Shown piece after piece: positions 1,767 to 64,000 of a stretch of 64,000 nucleotides of DNA. The DNA is from the human T2T-CHM13v2.0 reference genome, Homo sapiens: NCBI RefSeq assembly GCF_009914755.1, contig NC_060944.1; one strand, written 5' to 3'. The stretch's first letter is position 1. Each line of letters begins with the position of its first letter. The notes beneath the pieces are model-generated. The model had not been told where the DNA came from, searched no databases, and worked only from the letters and a program-made list of their open reading frames with translations. Made by a program: the position numbers and the translations under genes.

Positions 1767-2063
1767 GGCTGGGTGTGGTGGCTCATGACTGTAATCCCAG
1801 CACTTTGGGATGCTGAGGCAGGTGGATCACTGGAGCCCAGGAGTTTGAGAGCAGACTGGGCAACATAGTAAGACCCTGCCTCTAAAAACACAAATAGAAA
1901 AATTAGCCAGGCATGGTAGCGCACACGTGTAGTCCCAGCTACTCAGGAGGCTGAGGTGGGAGGATTGCTTGAGCCTGGGAGGGTTAGGCTACAGTGAGCC
2001 ATGATCGCACTACTGCACTCCATCCTAGGCAACCAAGCAAGACCGTGTCTCAAAAAAAAAAAA
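1767..2063 (+). mobile_element. Alu (J-like)
   Basis: Dimeric Alu structure with A tail. Confidence 0.9.
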
Positions 2064-4100: not shown

Positions 4101-5161
4101 CAGAAATATTGAGCTGAGAGCAAATAGTCTTCCTGGATGATAATGAACTCCTTCTGTCTGTCTCTATGCCATGAACCATGCTTTACCGAGCACTCTTGGT
4201 CCCTGGCCTCACTGCAGAGGACGCAGTTCAGGGTGAAAAACTAACTGTGTTGGTTAAATGGGGCCCAGAGAATAGGACTTGAGAATAAAGTCTGGGAAGA
4301 CACCCAGATTCTCTAGATTCCCAAACAGGATTCTTAAATGTTCCCCATGAGTGAGTCTTCTCCCCAGCTAAAGTACCAATTCAAATGAGACAGGCTTCTG
4401 TCTCCCTCAGACTCTAACACAGTTGGAAGGCACACAGTTCATATTTCATAAATCCTTGAATAAATCAATGAACAATAGGTGACGACATTTGTTGAGTGCT
4501 TACCTTTGCATTATTATGTCATTTCATCCTTACTGCAATCCTGAAATAGATTCTACAATTACTCTAATTTACAGAGGAGGAAGATGAAGTTCTGAGAGGT
4601 TTATATGCAGAGTCTGCCAGTAGTAAGTGGCAGAGCTGAAGTGAATATGAATGAATGAATCGGTGAAAGAATGGAAAAAATGAATAATGAACAAATTCAT
4701 ATATAAATAAGCAAATCATGTGCTTTATCTTTTTTTAGTACTCAGACACCTTCTAACCCCTGGGGCTGGGCCTCTTGAGCACTAGAAAGCATCAGCTGGT
4801 TTCTCTAGAACCCCAAGGATTTGGGTTATATTCAGCCCCATCCACTCTCAGCCCATTCACTCTCAAGATGGACCAACTCTCCCAGCCTAAGGATTCTCCC
4901 ACTCTTTAGGCATCTGCTATGCCTTTAAATCTCTCAGCTCCCACCATGTTCTCCCCAGTCCACTCCTGACTCAATAGCCTCTCCTGCAGCTGGTAGATGG
5001 GGAATCATCTTCAAGACTGTAATGATCACACCATCGCTATGACCCAGCCCTAGTGACTTCTCTCGACTAGCTCTTCACCTCCCCCTGCCATCCCCCCACC
5101 CTCAATCCATTTGAAGTATCATTCCTTATGATTGACAGACACCAGAAACAAATTTGTGAGT

Positions 5162-5167
5162 TTTAAT
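5162..5167 (-). terminator. ATTAAA polyadenylation signal of the DEFB120-type exon
   Basis: About 40 nt after the stop codon, with GT-rich sequence downstream. Confidence 0.7.
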
Positions 5168-5205
5168 GAAATGTGGACCCTAAGCAACCTGAAACAAAGT
5201 CATTT

Positions 5206-5411
5206 CTATCTATTAGTTATATTTGTCTTCATTTTTGGAGCTGTTGTGGACATCTGAGGAGTGGTCCAGCCAAGGATTCCATGAATTGTTACTGGTTGGA
5301 TTGTTAAATAACGACTAGGAACACAGCACCGTTTACGATTTCGGCAGCGTATGATGCTGTCTTCACCATCTTTGCACAACAACCGGCAGTGTCCATCCAT
5401 CCAACACTCTA
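5206..5411 (-). CDS. DEFB119: Proximal alternative terminal exon of DEFB119 (former DEFB120); gives an 88-aa isoform ...VECWMDGHCRLLCKDGEDSIIRCRNRKRCCVPSRY...TNITNR
   Basis: Acceptor CCCCAAAG|TA in phase with exon 1; six-Cys motif C-X5-C-X3-C-X9-C-X5-CC; stop TAG at 5208-5206; ATTAAA downstream. Confidence 0.93.
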
Positions 5412-6603: not shown

Positions 6604-6664
6604 CTGATATCACTGGTTCTTCTATGGCCAGAAGGATGGCAAGAAACAGGTAAAGAAGTTTCAT
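6604..6664 (-). CDS. DEFB119: Beta-defensin 119 exon 1, signal peptide MKLLYLFLAILLAIEEPVIS
   Basis: ATG at 6664 in GCCATG context; 61 nt (20 codons + 1) ending at phase-1 donor G|GTAACG; hydrophobic signal peptide recognised as DEFB119. Confidence 0.95.
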
Positions 6665-6749
6665 GGCTGGCAGACCTGAGAGGAGGAGGTGGCTGAGCTG
6701 CAGGGGAAGGAAATAGGGTTCCCTGCAGCACGGCAGAGATGAGCTTTGC

Positions 6750-6800
6750 TTTTATCAGCAGGGCTGTGGGCAGTGAATTAGAACAGGAGGGGATTTATAT
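6750..6800 (-). promoter_or_regulatory. Candidate DEFB119 core promoter (TATAAA 6799-6794; GATAAAA 6756-6750)
   Basis: TATA-like and GATA-type boxes 90-135 nt upstream of the ATG. Confidence 0.5.
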
Positions 6801-42352: not shown

Positions 42353-45152
42353 TTTTTGTCACCTTGAAAAGATTTGTTCACTTATATTGACTTCAATTTT
42401 TTAAACTGTAAATTGCATTTTATTAGTAGAGCTTGAAAGGTTCAAAAACGCTCTCCCCTCTCCCCTCTCCCCTCTCCCTTTTCTCCTCTCCCCTCTCCCT
42501 CTCGGTCTCCCTCTCCCTCTCTTTCCACGGTCTCCCTCTGATGCCGAGCCAAAGCTGGACTGTACTGCTGCCATCTCGGCTCACTGCAACCTCCCTGCCT
42601 GATTCTCCTGCCTCAGCCTGCCGAGTGCCTGCGATTGCAGGCGCGCGCCACCACGCCTGACTGGTTTTCGTACTTTTTTGGTGGAGACGGGGTTTCGCTG
42701 TTTTGGCCGGGCTGGTCTCCAGCTCCTAACCGCGAGTGATCCGCCAGCCTCGGCCTCCCGAGGTGCCGGGATTGCAGACGGAGTCTGGTTCACTCAGTGC
42801 TCAATGGTGCCCAGGCTGGAGTGCAGTGGCGTGATCTCAGCTCGCTACAACCTCCATCTCCCAGCCGCCTGCCTTGGCCTCCCAAAGTGCCGAGATTGCA
42901 GCCTCTGCCCCGCCGCCACCCCGTCTGGGAAGTGAGGAGCGTCTCTGCCTGGCCGCCCATCGTCTGGGACGTGAGGAGCCCCTCTGCCTGGCTGCCCAGT
43001 CTGGAAAGTGAGGAGCGTCTCTGCCCCGCCGCCATCCCGTCTAGGAAGTGAGGAGCGCCTCTTCCCGGCAGCCATCCCATCTGGGAAGTGAGGAGCGTCT
43101 CTGCCCGGCCGCCCATCGTCTGAGATGTGGGGAGCGCCTCTGCCCCGCCGCCCCATCTGGGATGTGAGGAGCGCCTCTGCCGGGCCGCGACCCCGTCTGG
43201 GAGGTGAGGAGCGTCTCTGCCCAGCCGCCCCGTCTGAGAAGTGAGGAGACCCTCCGCCCAGCATCCGCCCCATCTGAGAAGTGAGGAGCCCCTCCGCCCG
43301 GCAGCTGCCCCGTCTGAGAAGTGAGGAGCCCCTCTGCCCAGCAGCCGCCCCGTCCGGGAGGGAGGTGGGGGGGTCAGCCCCCCGCCTAGCGAGCCGCCCC
43401 GTCCGGGAGGTGAGGGGCGCCTCTGCCCAGCCGCCCCTACTGGGAAGTGAGGAGCCCCTCTGCCTGGCCAGCCACCCCATCCGGGAGGGAGGTGGGGGAA
43501 TCAGCCCCCCACCCGGCCAGCCGCCCCGTCCGGGAGGGAGGTGGGGGGGTCAGCCCCACGTCCGGGAGGGAGGTGGGGGGGGTCAGCCGCCCTGTCCGGG
43601 AGGGAGGTGGGGGGGTCAGCCCCCCGCCTGGCCAGCCGCCCTGTCCGGGAGGGAGGTGGGGGGGTCAGCCCCACGTCCGGGAGGGAGGTGGGGGGGGGTC
43701 AGCCCCCCGCCCAGCCAGCCGCCCCATCCGGGAGGGAGGTGGGGTCAGCCCCCCGCCCGGCCAGCCGCCCCGTCCGGGAAGTGAGGGGCGCCTCTGCCCA
43801 GCCGCCCCTACTGGGAAGTGAGGAGCCCCTCTGCCGGGCCAGCCACCCCGTCCGGGAGGGAGGTGGGGGGCTCAGCCCCCCGCCCGGCCAGCCGCCCCGT
43901 CCGGGAGGTGAGGGGCGTCTCTGCCCGGCCGCCCCTACTAGGAAGTGAGGCGCCCCGCTGCCCGGCCAGCCGCTCCGTCAGGGAGGGAGGTGGGGGGGTC
44001 AGCCCCCTGCCCGTCCAGCCGCCCCGTCCGGGAGGTGAGGGGCGCCTCTGCCCGGCCGCCCCTACTGGGAAGTGAGGAGCCCCTCTGCCCGGCCACCACC
44101 CCGTCTGGGAGGTGTACCCAACAGCTCATTGAGAACGGGCCGGGATGACAATGGCGGTTTTGTGGAATAGAAAGGGGGGAAAGGTGGGGAAAAGATTGAG
44201 AAATCGGATGGTTGCCGTGTCTGTGTAGAAAGAAATAGACATGGGAGACTTTTCATTTTGTTCTGTACTAAGATAAATTCTGCTGCCTTGGGATCCTGTC
44301 GATCGGTGATCTTACCCCCAACCCTGTGCTCTCTGAAACATGTGCTGTGTCCACTCAGGGTTAAATGGATTAAGGGCGGTGCAAGATGTGCTTTGTTAAA
44401 CAGATGCTTGAAGGCAGCATGCTCGTTAAGAATCATCACCACTCCCTAATCTCAAGTACCCAGGGACACAAACACTGCTGAAGGCCGCAGGGTCCTCTGC
44501 CTAGGAAAACCAGAGACCTTTGTTCACTTGTTTATCTGCCGACCTTCCCTCCACTATTGTCCTATGACCCTGCCAAATCCCCCTCTGCGAGAAACACCCA
44601 AGAATGATCAATAAAAAAAATAAAAATTAAAAAAAAAGAAAGGTTCAAAAACATTTACAAAGGGCATAAAAGTGGTGGGTTTCAAAAAATATTAATATCT
44701 AATCATATATTTCGTTATGTTAAAAATTCTTACTTACCTTTTTCTTTCCCAGAGAGAGTTTAGGAATTTTCTCAGGTGTGTTTTCTGTAGGTGATTTCAA
44801 ACAGAATTCCAAGGCTCAGCTTTTAGAATGCTACGGAGGAAAATAATAGGGAAAATCTCCTTTGATTTTGGCTGTAGAAAATGAATACATTTCCACGAGG
44901 AAATATTGTAGATAATTGGTGAGTTACATAAATTTATAAAACATTAGTTCCTCTTTCTGCAGGGTAAATTCCTGAGAGTGAATATCTCTGGTCTGTATCC
45001 TGTTATCTTGATTTCTGAGTTTCATACTAAATTTCATGAGATGAAACTTGGTACCTCCTACAAGTTTTTCCCTATGACTAATTGTTTACTACATTATTTT
45101 TAATAGAAATAATACAATAATAAATTTATTATCTGAAAGAAAATAAATAAAT
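42353..45152 (+). pseudogene. Retrocopy-like AT-rich insert (about 0.6 kb excluding the SVA) inside an MLT1 LTR
   Basis: 12-bp TSD AAAGTACACTTG (42341-42352 and 45153-45164); AATAAA and A-rich tail. Confidence 0.7.
42450..44637 (+). mobile_element. Full-length SVA retrotransposon (D/E/F type)
   Basis: (CCCTCT)n head, antisense Alu-like domain, GC-rich VNTR, SINE-R, AATAAA and poly-A; perfect 15-bp TSD GAAAGGTTCAAAAAC (42435-42449 and 44638-44652). Confidence 0.97.
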
Positions 45153-45164
45153 AAAGTACACTTG

Positions 45165-45900
45165 CCATAACAAACTGAGTGGCTTAAAGTAATAAAAATT
45201 ATTTTCTCTCACAGTTCTGGAGGTCAGAAGTCCAAAATCAAAGTGTTGGCAGTGTTGCTTCCTCTTTAGGGCACAGAGGGAAAATCTGTTCCATGCTTCT
45301 CTCCTAGTCCATGGTGATTGCTAAATGATCATTGGCTTGTAGTGGCGTAACTCCAATCTCTGCCTCTGTGGTCATACAGCATTCTCCCTGTGTGTCTCTG
45401 TCCAAATTTCTCTTTTTTTTTTTTCTTTTTTTTTTTTGAGACAGGGTCTCACTGTGTTGCCCAGGCTGTAGTGCAGTGGTGAGATGTCAGCTCACTGCAA
45501 CCTCCACCTCCCGAGTTCAAACAATTCTCCTGTCTCAGCCTCCCAAGTAGCTGGGATTACAGGCACCTACCACCACACCCAGCTAATTTTTGTATTTTTA
45601 GTAGAGATAGGGTTTCACGCTGTTGGCCAGGCTGGTCTCAGACTCCTGACCTCAAATGATCCACCAGCCTCGGCCTCCCAAAGTGCAGGGATTACAGGCA
45701 TGAGCCACTGCGCCCAGCTGAAATTTCTTTTTTCTTATAAGGACACCAGCCACTGGATTAGAGCTCACCCTTATCCAACATGACTTCATCTTAACTTCAT
45801 TACATCTGCAAATATCCTATTTCCAGATAAGTCACATTCACAGGCACTTGGTGTTAGGACTAGAACATATATTTTGGGAAAGACACAATTCAACCCACGA
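45165..45900. mobile_element. MLT1 LTR with an inserted Alu (about 45410-45718, -)
   Basis: CTCACAGTTCTGGAGGTCAGAAGTCC motif. Confidence 0.8.
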
Positions 45901-50080: not shown

Positions 50081-50941
<861 letters not shown>

Positions 50942-56559: not shown

Positions 56560-56834
56560 GCCGGTGTTTGTGGCGCCTCCTGCTGGTCACTGGGTTCAGG
56601 CAGTTTGGAGCTGGGTGGAAGGAACGGGTAGTATATTAAGTCTTGGGCCCTGGACCTTGTTGGCTGTCCTCTCCCTGCTGACCTAAATGACAAAGGGAGG
56701 GGTGTCCAGTCAGAGTGTGAGGGCTGTACCCGTGGGCAGCTGAGGGAGTGCGAGCCACAGGCCAGGCACTCTCCTTCTCCCATTAGCTCAGCCGTGGCAT
56801 CGGACTTGCAGCTTCATTTTGGGCTGCCTTAGCC
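56560..56834 (+). promoter_or_regulatory. DEFB123 promoter/5'UTR region with TATATTAA at 56632-56639
   Basis: Unique GC-richer sequence with several CpGs directly upstream of exon 1. Confidence 0.45.
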
Positions 56835-56892
56835 ATGAAGCTCCTTTTGCTGACTTTGACTGTGCTGCTGCTCTTATCCCAGCTGACTCCAG
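56835..56892 (+). CDS. DEFB123: Beta-defensin 123 exon 1, signal peptide MKLLLLTLTVLLLLSQLTP; exon 2 not in window
   Basis: GCCATG Kozak context, 58-nt exon, donor CCAG|GTAACC. Confidence 0.93.
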
Positions 56893-58731
56893 GTAACCTG
56901 AACCTCCTTAAGGAAGGGGCAGGGCTTAGAGACTAAGGCCTGGTCAGAGAATCCCAAGGGCTAGAAGGATGGGCTGCAGGTTGTCATCTAGCACCACGTA
57001 TAGGAGGCAGGAGGCGCCTCACCAGCAGCAGGTGCCAGCTGATAGATGACAACTACAACATCCAGAGCTGCTCTCTCAGTGGCTCCATCCCTCCTCTTCC
57101 TGCCCAGCTCCAGGGAGCATGTGGGGGTGGCCTAGTGTGTGAGGAGGAGTGGGAGGGGTGAGCAAGAGAAGCAGGAAAGAGGAGAGGCAGGTATGGCCCT
57201 TTTGCAAAATAGTCCCCAGAATGAACGAAGCTTTGTGAAGATCACAGCTACCTTAATGGGAGAGAAAGCTCATTTGTACTTAGCTGTCTCTGTGCCAGAC
57301 TCTGCGCTGGAAGCTAGGACCACGGAGATAAATGACATGGTGCCAGGGGAACTAACTGGAGGAGACAGTTAAATAGCATTTATAACCCAGGGTGACACGG
57401 CTGTGGCAGTGGGAAACCAGGGGGCTGGGTACACATGGTCCAGCCCAGGCTGAGGGAAAGGAGAGTCCTCCTGGAGGGATATCCTGAGTCCTAAAAAGTG
57501 AGTCGAAAATAGAAAAGGAAGGAGAGGGGAAAGCAGAAGGGTGTCCCAGGCAGAGAGGTCAGCCTATGCAAAGGTTGGATGCGGGAGAGAGCATGGGAGT
57601 GTCGGGGACCTGCATAACATGGAGGGGTGGGTTAGGAGAGAGGCGGGGGTAAAGCTGAGGAAGCATTCAAGCTCCAGGTCTCAGTGGGCCTCAAATGCCA
57701 GGTGAGGGACCCATGGGAAGGTTTAAACAGAGAAAGACCCTGGTCAGACCTACCACCCACCAATTCCAGCATGAGCCACCTATCCCTTCCTGCTCATCTG
57801 GCAGAAGTTTCCACCCACCCTAAGGCTGTCGGCTAACCTTTCTACAGAGTCAGAAACGTGTGAATTTCCTAAACAAGCTGACCTCCGTCCTTGTGTCTTC
57901 CTGAGGCCCTAAAACACCACTCACCTGGAGTAGGGAGGAAAGCCCAGACCCCGGGTTAAAACCTGCCCCATCATTTTCTGACTCTGTGAGCCCCAACAAG
58001 AAGCTCAGCTGCTCAGAGTATCAATTTCCTCATTTCTCAAACTGCAATAACATCAAGTGTGTAATAATATCAGGTTGAGGGAACAACATTGAACACACTG
58101 AAATTTTGGTCTGCAAAAGAAATATGGCTTCTCTATTTTCTCTAACTCACCAAACTTTCCCAGGAACTTCCATCCTGACTGTGGGAGTTAGTGGTGGGAG
58201 GAGCAGGACTACAGAGATAAATGACATGGCACCAGGGGAGCAAACTAGGGGAGACAGTTAAATAGCACTTACAACCCAGGGTGACAAGGCACATAGGGGC
58301 TGGGCCTGAACTCAGCAGTTCAATATTTGTCTTTTCTGTTTTAAAATGATTTCTAAGCTAATTCAATCTCTTTTGAATAAGTGTTGAGTCTTTCAGCATG
58401 TCTCTTTCTTCCATCACCCTTTCTCTTTCCTGGGATAGTATCTGGTTACAGGGAAAAGTAACTTGATATGTCATCAAATAATTAATTGCTTCATTCAGTA
58501 AATACAGTTGAATGGATTTCTTGTTCCAAGCACTGTGATGGGTGCTAGAGGTAGAACTGGGAACAAAACAAGATAAGCAAAATCTCTGTCCTCTTGGAGC
58601 TTACCTTCTACTGGAGGACCCAAAGAATTTGAAAAATAAATGAAACATATGGTATGTCAGATAATGAGTACAGTGAGCAGAATAGGCAGGAAAGGAAATA
58701 GTGAACACCAGGGGAAGGGGAAGGTCATTTG

Positions 58732-59042: not shown

Positions 59043-59560
59043 CTTTGCCATTTTTAAGGGGTTGTTCATGGAATGTCTCACTGTGACCTGAGGGAACAAC
59101 CGGTGTGAGCATGTGGCTATGGAGGGAAGGAAATTCAAGCTGGGGAAAACAGCAAGTGCAAGGGTCCTGGGATAGGAACATAAGGAGGTGGGGTCAGGTC
59201 CTGTGCTGGACCCTTACTGACTTCTGGGATCACGACCCTCGTTGGATGTGGTTAGTAGCGTCCTGCTAGCACTTACTACTGGATTTCATGACTGATGAAA
59301 TCTCTCAGCCCTTTTGGGGTCCCCACTGACTCGACCCTTCATCTCAGCCAGATCTTCCATCTGGTCCCCAAGTTAAGGCTGTTCACACCCTCCCTTACTG
59401 CCTTCTGCACTAGGGGTGTACTCTTGGCAGGTCCCTCACTGGTTTTCCTATCTCAGCCAGAGACAAGGGAACCTGGGGACCTTCTGGGTCTATTTTATTC
59501 AACAGAGAGCTGACAGTGATGCTCAGCCACTTCCCTTAGCCATTTCTAATCCCCCTTCAG

Positions 59561-59690
59561 GTAGCACCATGCAGTGCTATATCCATGCTAAAGATAAGAA
59601 TTTCTCTGAAGAGCTACCAGTTTCCCTGAGCTATGCTCTAAGAGGCAGAGAGTAAGTGTCTTCTGCGTTGGCAATTTCTTTCGACCAATC
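59561..59690 (+). pseudogene. Degenerate beta-defensin exon-2 relic in the DEFB123 intron
   Basis: Phase-1 acceptor CCCCCTTCAG|GT; GSTMQC start; then, in a shifted frame, ELCSKRQRVSVFCVGN (C-X9-C), resembling DEFB122 ECLKNERVYVFCVSG. Confidence 0.6.
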
Positions 59691-60799
59691 TGGGTATTCA
59701 TAGCAAGAGACTCTCTTGCCCCTACCTTTCTCACATTAATTATCTCTACTTCCTGAGTGTTCAGGTCAACCAGTAGACTGCTAGCAGGAGACACACGAAA
59801 GGCCTTTGTCCCTAGCTTGTTGGTGGGTCCACCATCAGGCTGGCAGAATGAGGCATGGGTTCTAGCAGGGCTCTCAGGCCCACTGCTGCTGCTGCGGGAG
59901 CTGGATTTAAACTTCCAGCTTCCCCAGAAATTATGGGCAGAGTATTTCCCCTCTACTTCCTGTTGGGTATGGTAGTGGTGACAGAGGTTAAATGGAAGCT
60001 ACTTTAGCTGGACCCTCAGCCTTAGCCTCCTATAGCTTATGATGAAGTGGTATTGTCTGAACCCCCCAGGTTCATCTAATAATGTATAAAGGAGCTCTTT
60101 GAAATTTGGAAATCCCTGAACTTCCTTAACAAATGTTGGTCCTTAAAATGGTCTTTCCATGCACAACCCTTATCTCATTTAAGCTGAGCAATGAGTTTGC
60201 TGTTCTGTTGTTCACCATTCCCCCAAAACCCAGAAACTCTGCCCAATTCTGCTTTTTGACAACCAATGGATTTTATGATTAAAGGGGATTGAAATATGCA
60301 TCACTTTAATATTTTCAAAATATTGTCATACTCACCGTTAGGTTAATTGTGGGAATTCAGGAGACATATGTAAAGCCCAGAAACCCAGCAGAGATGAGAT
60401 TTAGGTGGGACACCTGCCCTTCCATTATACATCCTCACAGCACCCTGAGTTCGTTCTTTATAATTTTTATCATACTCTAGTTAATCAAATATCTGGGTAT
60501 CTATTTTTTAATGGCTCTTTCTCCCCTCTTTAGACTGGAAGTTCTCTGAGGGTAGGTGTCTCACTCATTTATAGTTTTATCTCCAGTGTATAGGCCTCTC
60601 AGTCTATACATGTGAGTATTTCCCTGGTGTAGACATCTGGAAAGGAATTGCTAGGTAAAGACTGTGTATAGTTTTAAAATGTGTAAGTTATTGCTCAGTA
60701 GGCTCCACAGATGCTAAAAAAGTGTATGAGTGTCATTCCTTTCACTCACCAATAGTTCCTCTTGACACTCTTAAATTAAAAATTGAGATTTTGTTGTTA

Positions 60800-64000
<3,201 letters not shown>

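What the first reader, a model, noticed from the sequence alone, without database searches (positions are those of the whole stretch)
59545..59740. Decayed beta-defensin exon hidden inside the DEFB123 intron
Seen: a good acceptor (TTCTAATCCCCCTTCAG|GT at 59560/61) in the same phase as the DEFB123 exon-1 donor. It reads G-S-T-M-Q-C, like the usual exon-2 start (DEFB122 G-R-I-E-T-C). After about 26 extra nt and a frame change, 59622-59672 reads F-P-E-L-C-S-K-R-Q-R-V-S-V-F-C-V-G. This keeps the C3-X9-C4 spacing and matches DEFB122 C-R-D-E-C-L-K-N-E-R-V-Y-V-F-C-V-S at 30/48 nt by hand count. C2 appears as TTC (one change from TGC) and the terminal CC is lost. Inference: DEFB123 once had the one-signal-exon, two-defensin-exon layout that DEFB119/120 has in this window, and this is a lost defensin module. 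I do not recall it being annotated.
Basis: partly seen in the sequence, partly recalled or inferred. Interest (0 to 1): 0.85.

Follow-up and report, generated by a model that had tools for sequence, protein, structure and literature searches.

The report
Dead duplicate of DEFB123's defensin exon
Inside the long intron of the human beta-defensin gene DEFB123 lies an unannotated, badly decayed second copy of that gene's peptide-coding exon, an ordinary fossil of the duplication and loss by which defensin genes evolve.

Summary
It is more than chance.

The nearest relative is DEFB123's own exon 2, 6.6 kb downstream, not DEFB122. nhmmer aligns 59455-59672 collinearly with 66043-66248 (window-equivalent coordinates), covering about 105 nt of intron, the acceptor and the exon as far as Cys4 (E 2e-4 to 2e-3). 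None of 1000 shuffles reaches the observed score. An 18-base intron motif occurs exactly twice in the whole genome, upstream of each acceptor. Unrelated human DNA (200 kb) gives nothing comparable.

The copy is dead. It carries a net +26 nt between Cys1 and Cys3, TTC at Cys2, no Cys5-Cys6, and a stop 31 codons after the acceptor. Pfam and general defensin profiles do not detect it. It is unmasked, unique in the genome and absent from RefSeq.

The most likely origin is an ancient short duplication within the gene, giving a layout of one signal exon and two defensin exons, as in DEFB119. Whether the copy was ever spliced or functional could not be tested here, because no other mammalian genomes and no RNA data were available.

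This is a new member of a known kind, of modest interest.

The parts
56835..56892 (+). DEFB123 exon 1 coding part (signal peptide). The donor is in phase 1. This is the only signal exon upstream of the relic.
   Evidence: RefSeq NM_153324.4. The sequence is read. It scores 37.8 bits with the signal-peptide HMM.
59455..59490 (+). Copied intron block, the best-preserved part of the relic. It holds the motif CAAGGGAA-N4-GGGACCTTCT at 59464-59485.
   Evidence: It aligns to window-equivalent 66043-66078, upstream of DEFB123 exon 2. The motif has exactly 2 matches in the whole T2T genome: here and 115 nt upstream of the DEFB123 exon-2 acceptor. The reversed control pattern has 1 match. In the window it matches once even with up to 3 mismatches, against 0.14 expected.
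59491..59560 (+). Rest of the copied intron, with the polypyrimidine tract and acceptor AG (59559-59560). Relative to DEFB123 it lacks 15 nt of the tract and the ACTGAT-type element that DEFB121, DEFB122 and DEFB123 share.
   Evidence: Alignments. The tract has 14/17 pyrimidines. Only 315 of 10,925 AG sites in 74 kb reach a pyrimidine fraction of 0.8.
59561..59568 (+). Exon start GTAGCACC. It matches 7 of the first 8 bases of DEFB123 exon 2 and, read in phase 1, encodes G-S-T.
   Evidence: The pattern TCAGGTRGCACC has its only exact window match at 59557-59568. The site ranks 8th of 10,924 AG sites against the subfamily profile.
59569..59589 (+). Extra segment (net +20 nt against DEFB123 in the nhmmer alignment).
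   Evidence: One search gives an alternative alignment. Positions are confirmed.
59590..59608 (+). Stretch that aligns to DEFB123 codons Q-R-C1-W-N-L-Y, with a 2-nt gap inside the Cys1 codon.
   Evidence: AAAGAT at 59590, AGAAT at 59597.
59609..59616 (+). An 8-nt insertion relative to DEFB123. The exon's net indels (+20, -2, +8) total +26 nt, which changes the frame.
59622..59624 (+). TTC at the position of the Cys2 codon (TGC in both DEFB122 and DEFB123).
59634..59675 (+). Best-preserved coding stretch, C-S-K-R-Q-R-V-S-V-F-C-V-G-N. It runs from Cys3 (59634-59636) to Cys4 (59664-59666) plus 3 codons. 8 of 14 residues are identical to DEFB123.
   Evidence: (12.4 bits, E 0.026, HMM positions 16-30).
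59652..59657 (+). A donor-like GTAAGT. It overlaps the TAA (59653-59655) that ends the reading frame entered from the acceptor. A hypothetical cassette 59561-59651 would be 91 nt long and would shift the frame.
   Evidence: Seen in the sequence only. No RefSeq transcript uses it.
59676..59753 (+). Rest of the open stretch. It has no detectable homology, and Cys5-Cys6 and the C-terminal tail are unrecognisable.
   Evidence: nhmmer of 59660-60000 against the 3' parts of DEFB123 and DEFB122 gave no hit at E<=100.

Best explanation
Window 59455-59672 is a fossil copy of DEFB123's own second exon together with about 105-125 nt of the intron just upstream of it. It lies 6.6 kb upstream of the working exon 2, in the same intron and the same orientation.

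The most likely origin is a short duplication (a few hundred bases) within the gene, in the DEFB122/123 lineage. It is about as old as the DEFB122/DEFB123 split, and so probably predates the primate-rodent ancestor. That duplication gave the gene one signal exon followed by two defensin-type exons, each with a phase-1 acceptor. DEFB119 still uses this architecture.

The upstream copy has since decayed. Indels add a net 26 nt between Cys1 and Cys3 and break the frame. The Cys2 codon now reads TTC, Cys5-Cys6 are gone, and the frame entered from exon 1 stops after 31 codons. Today it is most likely an inert pseudo-exon that the spliceosome skips.

What is shown and what is inferred:
- Shown: the homology, the lesions, and the lack of annotation.
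- Inferred: the mode and age of the duplication, and present inertness.
- Untested: whether the copy ever encoded a working peptide.

The confidence given (0.75) is for the whole statement. For the core claim alone, that this is a true decayed paralogue of DEFB123 exon 2, I put it at about 0.95.
For: **Homology at the DNA level**
- nhmmer aligns 59455-59672 collinearly with window-equivalent 66043-66248. E is 1.9e-4 with a 300-nt query against 9 kb masked. E is 4.4e-4 to 2.2e-3 against the masked 74 kb, in both directions.
- A DEFB123 exon-2 query at E<=1 returns only itself, DEFB122, DEFB121 and the relic.
- 0 of 1000 dinucleotide shuffles reach the observed local score (19, against a null of 9.9 +/- 1.4 with maximum 16).
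- The intron motif has 2 matches in 3.1 Gb, at the two homologous places.

**Homology at the protein level**
- The subfamily HMM gives 12.4 bits, E 0.026, rank 5 behind the 4 real exons. The next piece scores 8.2 bits.
- It is the Smith-Waterman top hit for both DEFB123 and DEFB122.

**Acceptor**
- The site ranks 8th of 10,924 AG sites, with pyrimidine fraction 0.82, the same as the true DEFB122 and DEFB123 acceptors.
- Only 11 AG sites lie in the 120 nt upstream of the C-terminal part.

**Decoys (200 kb of unrelated human DNA)**
- The best HMM hit is 9.9 bits and the best nhmmer hit is 8.1 bits.
- 18 of 28,237 AG sites reach the relic's score, and none of them has a pyrimidine fraction of 0.8 or more.

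**Not a repeat**
- It lies in unmasked sequence (59047-61663) and has a single genomic match.

**Duplication within the gene**
- DEFB123 and DEFB122 are collinear over exon 1, a 700-nt intron block, exon 2 and the 3'UTR. The relic sits inside that frame.
- No second signal exon or second copy of the intron block lies between the relic and exon 2.
- The shared block at 66043-66078 is upstream of where DEFB123 stops aligning with DEFB121 and DEFB122.

**Age**
- K2P is 0.40-0.50 for relic against DEFB123. It is 0.32-0.59 for neutral DEFB122 against DEFB123 blocks.
- Rat has orthologues of both DEFB122 and DEFB123 (PMC1420305, passages read).

**Same layout still in use**
- DEFB119 exon 1 splices to either of two defensin exons in RefSeq.
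Against: - General defensin models do not see it. Pfam PF13841 lists 52 matches genome-wide and none is here. Pfam finds 0 families on the two pieces. My HMM of the chr20-cluster domains gives 1.9 bits, rank 152 of 1841.
- Detectable homology is only about 215 nt with many indels. Each single statistic is modest (E about 1e-2 to 1e-4), so the case rests on their coincidence and on the unique motif.
- In the Cys2-Cys4 stretch the relic is equidistant from DEFB122 and DEFB123 (31/51 each). Its placement as sister of DEFB123 therefore rests on flank and exon-start similarity alone.
- The second collinear intron block (62011-62120 with 38891-38784) is weak at 14.6 bits, and it abuts a masked repeat.
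- Three protein word searches found only DEFB122 and DEFB123 orthologues and no intact third type. That search needs shared 5-residue words, so a blank means little.
- There is no cross-species or transcript evidence of any kind.
Confidence: 0.75

Rival explanations
1. The relic is what remains of a separate, complete defensin gene, a whole-gene tandem duplicate of the DEFB122/123 type. One signal exon was then lost, so that the surviving signal exon now splices past the dead exon to the downstream one.
For: Whole-gene duplication is how this cluster grew. DEFB122 and DEFB123 are themselves whole-gene inverted paralogues, with exon 1, intron blocks, exon 2 and 3'UTR all still alignable. The relic's divergence is of the same order as theirs. 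A signal exon of that age could have decayed or been deleted.
Against: No second signal exon lies in 56893-66166. The signal HMM's best hit there is 3.7 bits, against 37.8, 37.7 and 16.4 bits for the three real ones. The exon-1 DNA tile finds the first exons of DEFB122, DEFB121 and DEFB119 but nothing in the intron. There is no second copy of the 700-nt intron block, although that block is still 74% identical between DEFB122 and DEFB123. Relic homology starts abruptly at 59455 with its best-preserved block, which looks like a duplication boundary.
Confidence: 0.13
2. The resemblance is chance: an AG after a pyrimidine run, plus a short Cys-x9-Cys peptide match in a 64-kb window.
For: Pfam and broad defensin HMMs give nothing. 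Other six-frame pieces reach Smith-Waterman scores of 47-52 against other defensins, mostly in Alu-like sequence. The finding was made after the fact by eye.
Against: Four independent signals fall within 215 nt, in the correct order and on the correct strand. They are the unique intron motif (2 matches in the genome), the acceptor with a subfamily-type exon start (rank 8 of 10,924), the C3-C4 peptide (E 0.026) and the collinear nhmmer alignment. 0 of 1000 shuffles reach the score. 200 kb of decoys give no equal for any of the signals.
Confidence: 0.03
3. The element is still in use. It could be a rarely included, frame-shifting poison cassette (59561-59651, 91 nt, with the acceptor and a GTAAGT donor) that tunes DEFB123 output. 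Alternatively, its conserved intron block could be a regulatory site.
For: The acceptor is as pyrimidine-rich as the real ones. A perfect GTAAGT lies at 59652-59657. The intron block keeps 18 of 18 specified bases although the copies are only about 64% identical overall.
Against: No RefSeq transcript uses either site. The only alternative DEFB123 acceptor annotated is at window-equivalent 66101. No functional element is annotated there. The relic lacks the ACTGAT-type element upstream of the tract that DEFB121, DEFB122 and DEFB123 share. The GTAAGT arises from codons homologous to R-V-Y, so it may be accidental.
Confidence: 0.06
4. The segment derives from a transposable element or other dispersed repeat.
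For: None found. The repeat table lists only masked stretches of 100 bases or more, without family names, so short old fragments could be missed.
Against: The sequence is unmasked from 59047 to 61663. The 501-nt query has one match in the genome, itself. The motif has only two copies. nhmmer of the relic against 74 kb finds only DEFB123 exon 2.
Confidence: 0.01

Closest known systems
DEFB123 exon 2 (NM_153324.4; window-equivalent 66167-66395, just outside the window)
   Same: Same gene, strand and intron phase. They share about 105-125 nt of upstream intron including a motif unique in the genome. They also share the acceptor, the exon start (7 of 8 nt), and the Cys3-Cys4 stretch (8 of 14 residues, 31/51 nt).
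   Different: The relic has a net +26 nt, TTC at Cys2, and no Cys5-Cys6 or tail. It has a stop in the entered frame, no Pfam match, and is in no transcript.
DEFB119 locus (the DEFB119/DEFB120 pair): one signal exon alternatively spliced to two defensin exons
   Same: The physical layout is the same: a signal exon, a proximal defensin exon, then a distal defensin exon on the same strand. In RefSeq, exon 1 (6604-6771) joins 5149-5411 (NM_153323.5) or -6652..-6377 (NM_153289.4). In DEFB123 the spacing is 2.7 kb then 6.6 kb. In DEFB119 it is 1.2 kb then about 11.5 kb.
   Different: Both DEFB119 exons are intact and transcribed. Their DNA is hardly alignable to each other (E 0.18). In DEFB123 the proximal exon is dead and no transcript evidence exists. 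The name DEFB120 for the distal exon is recalled and also appears in PMC2373304 (passages).
DEFB122 (transcribed pseudogene, neighbouring inverted paralogue)
   Same: Same DEFB122/123 subfamily, sharing the signature ..K..RV.V.C. The relic matches it at 31/51 nt. It is another case of defensin decay in this cluster.
   Different: DEFB122 keeps an intact six-Cys exon (52.6 bits with my family HMM; 44.5 bits with Pfam PF13841). It is disabled elsewhere: its signal-exon donor reads AT, not GT. DNA flank homology of the relic to DEFB122 is not detectable (-0.1 bits). In the shuffle test, 41 of 1000 shuffles reach the observed score against DEFB122.
Exon relics of tandem exon duplication (a recognised source of alternative or mutually exclusive exons and of pseudo-exons).
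   Same: A duplicated internal or terminal exon with its acceptor, inside the same intron and in the same phase.
   Different: Here the copy has decayed beyond coding, and no evidence of past alternative use is available.

Membership tests
Beta-defensin domain (Pfam PF13841 Defensin_beta_2) | Six-cysteine array C-x6-C-x3/4-C-x9-C-x5/6-CC in one open frame | tested here: not met
   Only Cys3 (59634) and Cys4 (59664) are in register. Cys2 reads TTC. Cys1 is either in another frame (59575) or broken. There is no CC pair. The two parts lie in different frames.
Beta-defensin domain (Pfam PF13841 Defensin_beta_2) | Profile match at or above the curated cut-off (22.2 bits) | tested here: not met
   Pfam finds 0 families on both pieces, while the DEFB123 exon-2 control scores 32 bits. 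The relic is not among the 52 genome-wide six-frame matches.
Beta-defensin gene family (as a pseudogene or relic member) | Demonstrable homology to a bona fide member | tested here: met
   nhmmer to DEFB123 exon 2 plus intron gives 13.5-15.2 bits, E 2e-4 to 2e-3. 0 of 1000 shuffles reach the score. The subfamily HMM gives E 0.026. The motif is unique in the genome.
Beta-defensin gene family (as a pseudogene or relic member) | Two-exon architecture: the mature-peptide exon is entered through a phase-1 acceptor | tested here: met
   The acceptor is at 59560/61. The phase-1 reading gives G-S-T, like DEFB123 orthologues (G-[GDS]-T). The site ranks 8th of 10,924 AG sites.
Beta-defensin gene family (as a pseudogene or relic member) | Location in a defensin cluster | tested here: met
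   It lies inside DEFB123, between DEFB122 and DEFB123 exon 2 (annotation).
DEFB119-type alternative second-exon gene | One signal exon followed by two defensin-type exons on the same strand, each with an acceptor in the same phase | tested here: met
   Exon 1 ends at 56892. The relic's acceptor is at 59561 and the real one at window-equivalent 66167, both in phase 1. No second signal exon lies between them.
DEFB119-type alternative second-exon gene | Both exons are (or were) spliced to the signal exon and encode intact peptides | not testable with these tools
   There are no RNA-seq reads and no other mammalian genomes. RefSeq has no transcript through 59561. Protein word searches found no intact counterpart, but their sensitivity is low.

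The most novel reading that the evidence does not exclude
DEFB123 is the survivor of a gene with two modules. In the ancestor, and perhaps still in some mammals, the signal exon was alternatively spliced to two different defensin exons, so an unannotated second DEFB123-type peptide may exist at the orthologous intron position in other species. In humans the remnant, which keeps a strong acceptor and has gained a GTAAGT donor (a 91-nt frame-shifting cassette), might still be included occasionally as a poison exon that lowers DEFB123 output.
Probability: 0.12. Interest if true: 0.5.

Novelty: new member of a known kind. Interest (0 to 1): 0.3.

Why it matters
The relic adds one unannotated fossil to the map of the 20q11 beta-defensin cluster. 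It also shows that the layout of one signal exon and two defensin exons, known from DEFB119, arose at least twice in this cluster.

That gives a concrete, datable example of exon-level rather than whole-gene birth and death in defensins. It also makes a testable prediction: the orthologous place in the long DEFB123 intron of other mammals should hold the same relic or an intact exon.

In practice, the retained acceptor and the donor-like GTAAGT mark a possible cryptic exon. This could matter when intronic DEFB123 variants or aberrant transcripts are interpreted.

The finding does not change what is known about defensin function, and gene decay in this family is expected.

Tried and rejected
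**Searches that did not detect the relic**
- Broad defensin profiles cannot see it. This covers the Pfam PF13841 genome-wide search, Pfam on the two pieces and my own HMMs of 34 human defensin domains and of 11 chr20-type domains.
- Plain local DNA alignment with strict scoring found only a 34-nt match.
- Protein word searches gave nothing beyond known genes. The relic piece alone found no candidate. DEFB123 exon 2 found 11 orthologues. A 3-row alignment found 20 proteins, all of DEFB122 or DEFB123 type. No third type appeared.

**Possible second relics, rejected**
- The minus-strand piece 58187-58056 scores 52 by Smith-Waterman against the DEFB120-type exon. I rejected it as a second relic for two reasons. 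It lies in an intron block that is homologous to the DEFB122 intron. It also shows no DNA homology to any defensin exon.
- The minus-strand 51-mer at 61478 was the second-best ungapped match. It is AT-rich with stops, so I judged it chance.

**Extended homology and missing parts**
- I found no relic counterpart in the DEFB122 intron and no homology 3' of Cys4.
- I found no second signal exon in the DEFB123 intron.

**Analyses judged inconclusive**
- Global alignments of very short segments gave meaningless overlaps (5 and 13 aligned nt). I ignored them.
- I considered a codon-position or conservative-replacement argument that the copy was once under selection. Differences are 4:4:6 by codon position over 14 codons, read. 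I judged this inconclusive because DEFB123's own constraint confounds it.
- I also considered reading F-F after Cys4 as former C-C. That match is not significant.

**Literature**
- Six searches found no paper describing an exon relic in the DEFB123 intron.
- I read passages only, using the find mode, of PMC2373304, PMC6098084, PMC1420305, PMC10562630 and PMC4082625. All other papers were seen only as search listings.
- Supplementary files were not requested. The phylogeny in Supplementary Fig. S1 of PMC6098084 and the gene tables of PMC10562630 might bear on DEFB123 copy number in other species.
- The primate and mammalian cluster papers by Radhakrishnan et al. and Patil et al., and Schutte et al. 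2002, are recalled only and were not seen.

**Not done**
- A cluster-wide scan for further hidden relics was not done (see below).
Full report
**1. The observation**

Reading the window confirms every element of the finding.
- The sequence at 59540-59562 is a pyrimidine-rich run ending in CAG|GT. AG is at 59559-59560, and 14 of the 17 bases at -20..-4 are pyrimidines.
- DEFB123 exon 1 carries 58 coding bases (56835-56892), so its donor is in phase 1.
- Entered in that phase, the candidate exon reads G-S-T-M-Q-C-Y-I-H-A-K... and stops at TAA (59653-59655) after 31 codons.
- In another frame, 59622-59672 reads F-P-E-L-C-S-K-R-Q-R-V-S-V-F-C-V-G, within an open stretch at 59610-59753.
- The two TGC codons at 59575 and 59634 start 59 nt apart, against 33 nt between Cys1 and Cys3 in DEFB123. 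That is 26 extra bases and a change of frame.

**2. The closest relative is DEFB123's own exon 2**

The working exon 2 lies just beyond the window, at window-equivalent 66167-66395, and was fetched as L002.
- Its peptide, G-G-T-Q-R-C...C-S-K-K-E-R-V-Y-V-Y-C-I-N-N, resembles the candidate (G-S-T-M-Q-C...C-S-K-R-Q-R-V-S-V-F-C-V-G-N) more fully than DEFB122 does.
- I ran Smith-Waterman searches of each defensin domain against all 4,874 six-frame pieces of 74 kb (the window plus 10 kb), excluding the four annotated defensin exons. The candidate piece is top for DEFB123 (54, next 43) and for DEFB122 (44, next 42). It is unremarkable for the nine other cluster or related domains tried.

**3. Is it more than chance?**

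Negative results:
- Pfam PF13841, searched in six frames over the whole genome, lists 52 matches at E<=10, and none is here.
- Pfam finds nothing on the two open pieces, while the DEFB123 control scores 32 bits.
- My HMMs built from 34 human defensin domains, or from the 11 chr20-type domains, give at best 1.9 bits, rank 152 of 1,841 rows.

Positive results:
- A profile of only the DEFB122/123 subfamily, built from 20 orthologues of named public sources, puts the candidate piece fifth. It comes directly behind the four real defensin exons, at 12.4 bits and E 0.026, and the next piece scores 8.2 bits.
- I scored all 10,924 AG dinucleotides of the 74 kb (both strands) as phase-1 exon starts against the first eight profile positions. 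Site 59561 ranks 8th. Two of the seven above it are the true DEFB123 and DEFB122 acceptors, and the other five have pyrimidine fractions of 0.29-0.71, against 0.82 here and at the true sites.
- Only 315 of 10,925 AG sites reach a pyrimidine fraction of 0.8. Only 11 AG sites lie in the 120 nt upstream of the C-terminal part.
- In an ungapped scan of 147,900 51-mers, the site is the best non-paralogue match for both the DEFB122 and DEFB123 queries (31, next 29 and 28).

**4. DNA-level homology that includes the intron**

- nhmmer aligns 59455-59668/72 collinearly with window-equivalent 66043-66248.
  - E is 0.022 with a 1.5-kb query against about 90 kb.
  - E is 1.9e-4 with a 300-nt query against the masked 9 kb.
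  - E is 4.4e-4 to 2.2e-3 in reciprocal searches of the masked 74 kb.
- At E<=1, the DEFB123 exon-2 query returns only itself, DEFB122 (72 bits), DEFB121 (15.2 bits) and the relic (15.1 bits). The relic query returns only itself and DEFB123 exon 2.
- The alignment starts about 105 nt upstream of the relic's acceptor with its best block, 25 of 31 identical by my reading.
- That block's core is an 8-base word, four free positions, then a 10-base word. It occurs exactly twice in the 3.1-Gb genome on either strand: at 59464, and 115 nt upstream of the DEFB123 exon-2 acceptor. The reversed control pattern occurs once.
- The 12-base acceptor and exon-start pattern has its only exact window match at 59557.
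- Against 1000 dinucleotide shuffles of the relic, the local score to DEFB123 is 19, with a null of 9.9 +/- 1.4 and a maximum of 16. No shuffle reaches it. Against DEFB122, 41 of 1000 shuffles reach the observed score. Against DEFB121, 528 of 1000 do.
- In 200 kb of unrelated human DNA (20 stretches of 10 kb from 20 chromosomes):
  - The best subfamily-HMM hit is 9.9 bits.
  - The best nhmmer hit of the DEFB123 query is 8.1 bits.
  - 18 of 28,237 AG sites reach the relic's start score, and none of them has a pyrimidine-rich tract.
- The segment is not in a masked repeat of 100 bases or more (59047-61663 is unmasked). It also has no second copy in the genome.

I conclude that the homology is real.

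**5. Anatomy of the decay**

In the nhmmer alignment, relative to DEFB123 the relic:
- lacks 15 nt of the polypyrimidine tract;
- keeps TCAGGT.GCACC;
- has a 2-nt gap inside the codon aligned to Cys1 (near 59594-59597);
- has an 8-nt insertion (59609-59616).

The net change in the exon is +26 nt. TTC at 59622 aligns to Cys2. Cys3 (59634) and Cys4 (59664) are kept with the x9 spacing. Beyond 59672 nothing aligns, and no CC pair exists. An alternative alignment that keeps 59575 as Cys1 needs one indel fewer but matches fewer bases, so I leave Cys1 open. A global aligner gives yet another placement of the acceptor region.

The relic also lacks the ACTGAT-type element that precedes the tract in DEFB121, DEFB122 and DEFB123.

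**6. Surroundings and origin**

Tiling the DEFB123 gene against the masked 74 kb shows that DEFB123 (+) and DEFB122 (-) are collinear inverted paralogues:

| Block | DEFB123 | DEFB122 | Score |
|---|---|---|---|
| Exon 1 with flanks | 56723-56977 | 40209-39929 | 77 bits |
| Intron block | 57914-58626 | 39912-39294 | up to 88 bits; 74% identity, K2P 0.32 |
| Second intron block | 62011-62120 | 38891-38784 | 14.6 bits; weak, and it abuts a masked repeat |
| Exon 2 with 3'UTR | 66099-66432 | 37954-37603 | 72-95 bits |

- The relic lies between the two intron blocks and has no counterpart in the DEFB122 intron.
- No second signal exon exists in the DEFB123 intron. The signal-peptide HMM gives 37.8, 37.7 and 16.4 bits for the DEFB123, DEFB122 and DEFB121 signal exons, and at most 3.7 bits inside the intron. 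The exon-1 DNA tile finds the first exons of DEFB122, DEFB121 and DEFB119 only.
- There is no second copy of the 700-nt intron block either.
- Relic homology begins abruptly at its best block.

These points favour a short duplication within the gene, covering exon 2 and its proximal intron, over a whole-gene duplicate that later lost its signal exon.

The block shared by the relic and DEFB123 (66043-66078) lies upstream of the point (about 66097-66103) where DEFB123 stops aligning with DEFB122 and DEFB121. DEFB121 and DEFB122, by contrast, align with each other to about -104. That leans towards a copy made in the DEFB123 lineage. In the Cys2-Cys4 stretch, however, the relic matches DEFB122 and DEFB123 equally (31/51 each). 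By my reading, it sides with each at four of the sites where they differ. Its exact branching within the DEFB122/123 clade is therefore unresolved.

**7. Age (inference)**

- The K2P distance of relic to DEFB123 is 0.40 over the 100 aligned intron bases and 0.50 over 198 aligned bases overall.
- Neutral DEFB122-DEFB123 blocks give 0.32 (intron block), 0.38 (exon 1 flanks), 0.59 (70 nt upstream of exon 2) and 0.37 (3'UTR).
- The numbers are rough because the alignments are short and optimised. They put the copy in the same age class as the DEFB122/123 split.
- Rat has orthologues of both genes, Defb27 and Defb36 (PMC1420305, passages). DEFB123 is reported as one-to-one in human, mouse, cattle, dog and panda (PMC6098084, passage). 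A bat DEFB123 gene of 9,702 bp is reported (PMC10562630, passage).
- The copy is therefore probably older than the primate-rodent ancestor and should be visible in other mammals. I could not test that here.

**8. What it does now**

It most likely does nothing.
- RefSeq has two DEFB123 transcripts, and neither touches the relic. The alternative acceptor it lists is at window-equivalent 66101. No functional element is annotated there.
- Read from exon 1, the exon would give a 31-codon tail with a single cysteine.
- A perfect GTAAGT at 59652-59657 would allow a 91-nt frame-shifting cassette (59561-59651). That is a sequence observation only.

**9. Comparison with what is known**

- The same physical layout is in use at DEFB119 in this very window. 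In RefSeq, exon 1 (6604-6771) joins either 5149-5411 or a distal exon at -6652..-6377. Those two exons are barely alignable at the DNA level (E 0.18).
- The relic fails the tests for a beta-defensin domain (cysteine array, Pfam score). It meets the tests for a decayed family member: homology, phase-1 acceptor and cluster location.
- Six literature searches found no description of it. Older cluster papers that I only recall were not available to check.

**10. Verdict**

This is a real, unannotated and long-dead duplicate of DEFB123 exon 2 with its proximal intron. It needs three corrections:
- the comparator is DEFB123, not DEFB122;
- the extent is 59455-59672;
- the identity of Cys1 is uncertain.

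The claim of a former working two-exon gene remains an inference. Gene and exon decay is expected in this family, so interest is modest (0.3). Novelty: a new member of a known kind.

Noticed in passing
window 40071-40011 (- strand): The ancestral signal exon of DEFB122 (M-K-T-F-L-V-T-L-A-V-L-L-L-F-L-Q-V-I-P, 37.7 bits with the signal HMM) is intact as an open frame. It is followed by AT where DEFB123 has the GT donor. It is not among the exons of the RefSeq transcript NR_045677.1, which uses upstream exons at 44738-44830 and 45213-45375.
   Followed up: partly
window 56723-58626 and 62011-64000 (continuing in L002) versus 40209-37603: DEFB123 and DEFB122 are head-to-head inverted paralogues that are still alignable over non-coding DNA. 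This covers exon 1 flanks, a 700-nt intron block (74% identity) and the 3'UTR. The DEFB123 intron is 9.3 kb, against 2.2 kb between the DEFB122 signal exon and its exon 2.
   Followed up: partly
window 57297-57402 and 58184-58291 (+): A roughly 105-nt direct repeat inside DEFB123 intron 1 (50-56 bits by nhmmer). The downstream copy lies in the block homologous to the DEFB122 intron.
   Followed up: no
window 58056-58187 (- strand): An open piece reads ..E-K-P-Y-F-F-C-R-P-K-F-Q-C-V-Q-C-C and scores 52 by Smith-Waterman against the distal DEFB119 (DEFB120-type) exon. It has no DNA homology to any defensin exon, and it lies in the intron block shared with DEFB122. I judged it chance.
   Followed up: partly
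window 59464-59485 and L002:2052-2073: The shared intron motif keeps 18 of 18 specified bases although the two copies are only about 64% identical overall. It could be a constrained intronic element, or it could be luck.
   Followed up: partly
window 59652-59657: A perfect donor-like GTAAGT arises from the codons homologous to R-V-Y of DEFB123. With the acceptor at 59561 it would delimit a 91-nt frame-shifting cassette. No annotated transcript uses it.
   Followed up: no
L002:3201-3330 versus L002:4612-4740, and L002:1712-1801 versus L002:4944-5033: Unmasked direct repeats lie downstream of DEFB123 exon 2 (91.9 bits and about 22 bits by nhmmer). Their nature was not examined.
   Followed up: no
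window 50745-50849, 63085-63177 and 1830-1988 (- strand): These translated pieces give the highest chance Smith-Waterman scores (42-47) against defensin domains, through C-W-D-Y-type words. They read like translated Alu sequence; that label is recalled, not tested, and only 63085-63177 lies in a masked repeat listed. They are a source of false positives for cysteine-motif scans.
   Followed up: partly
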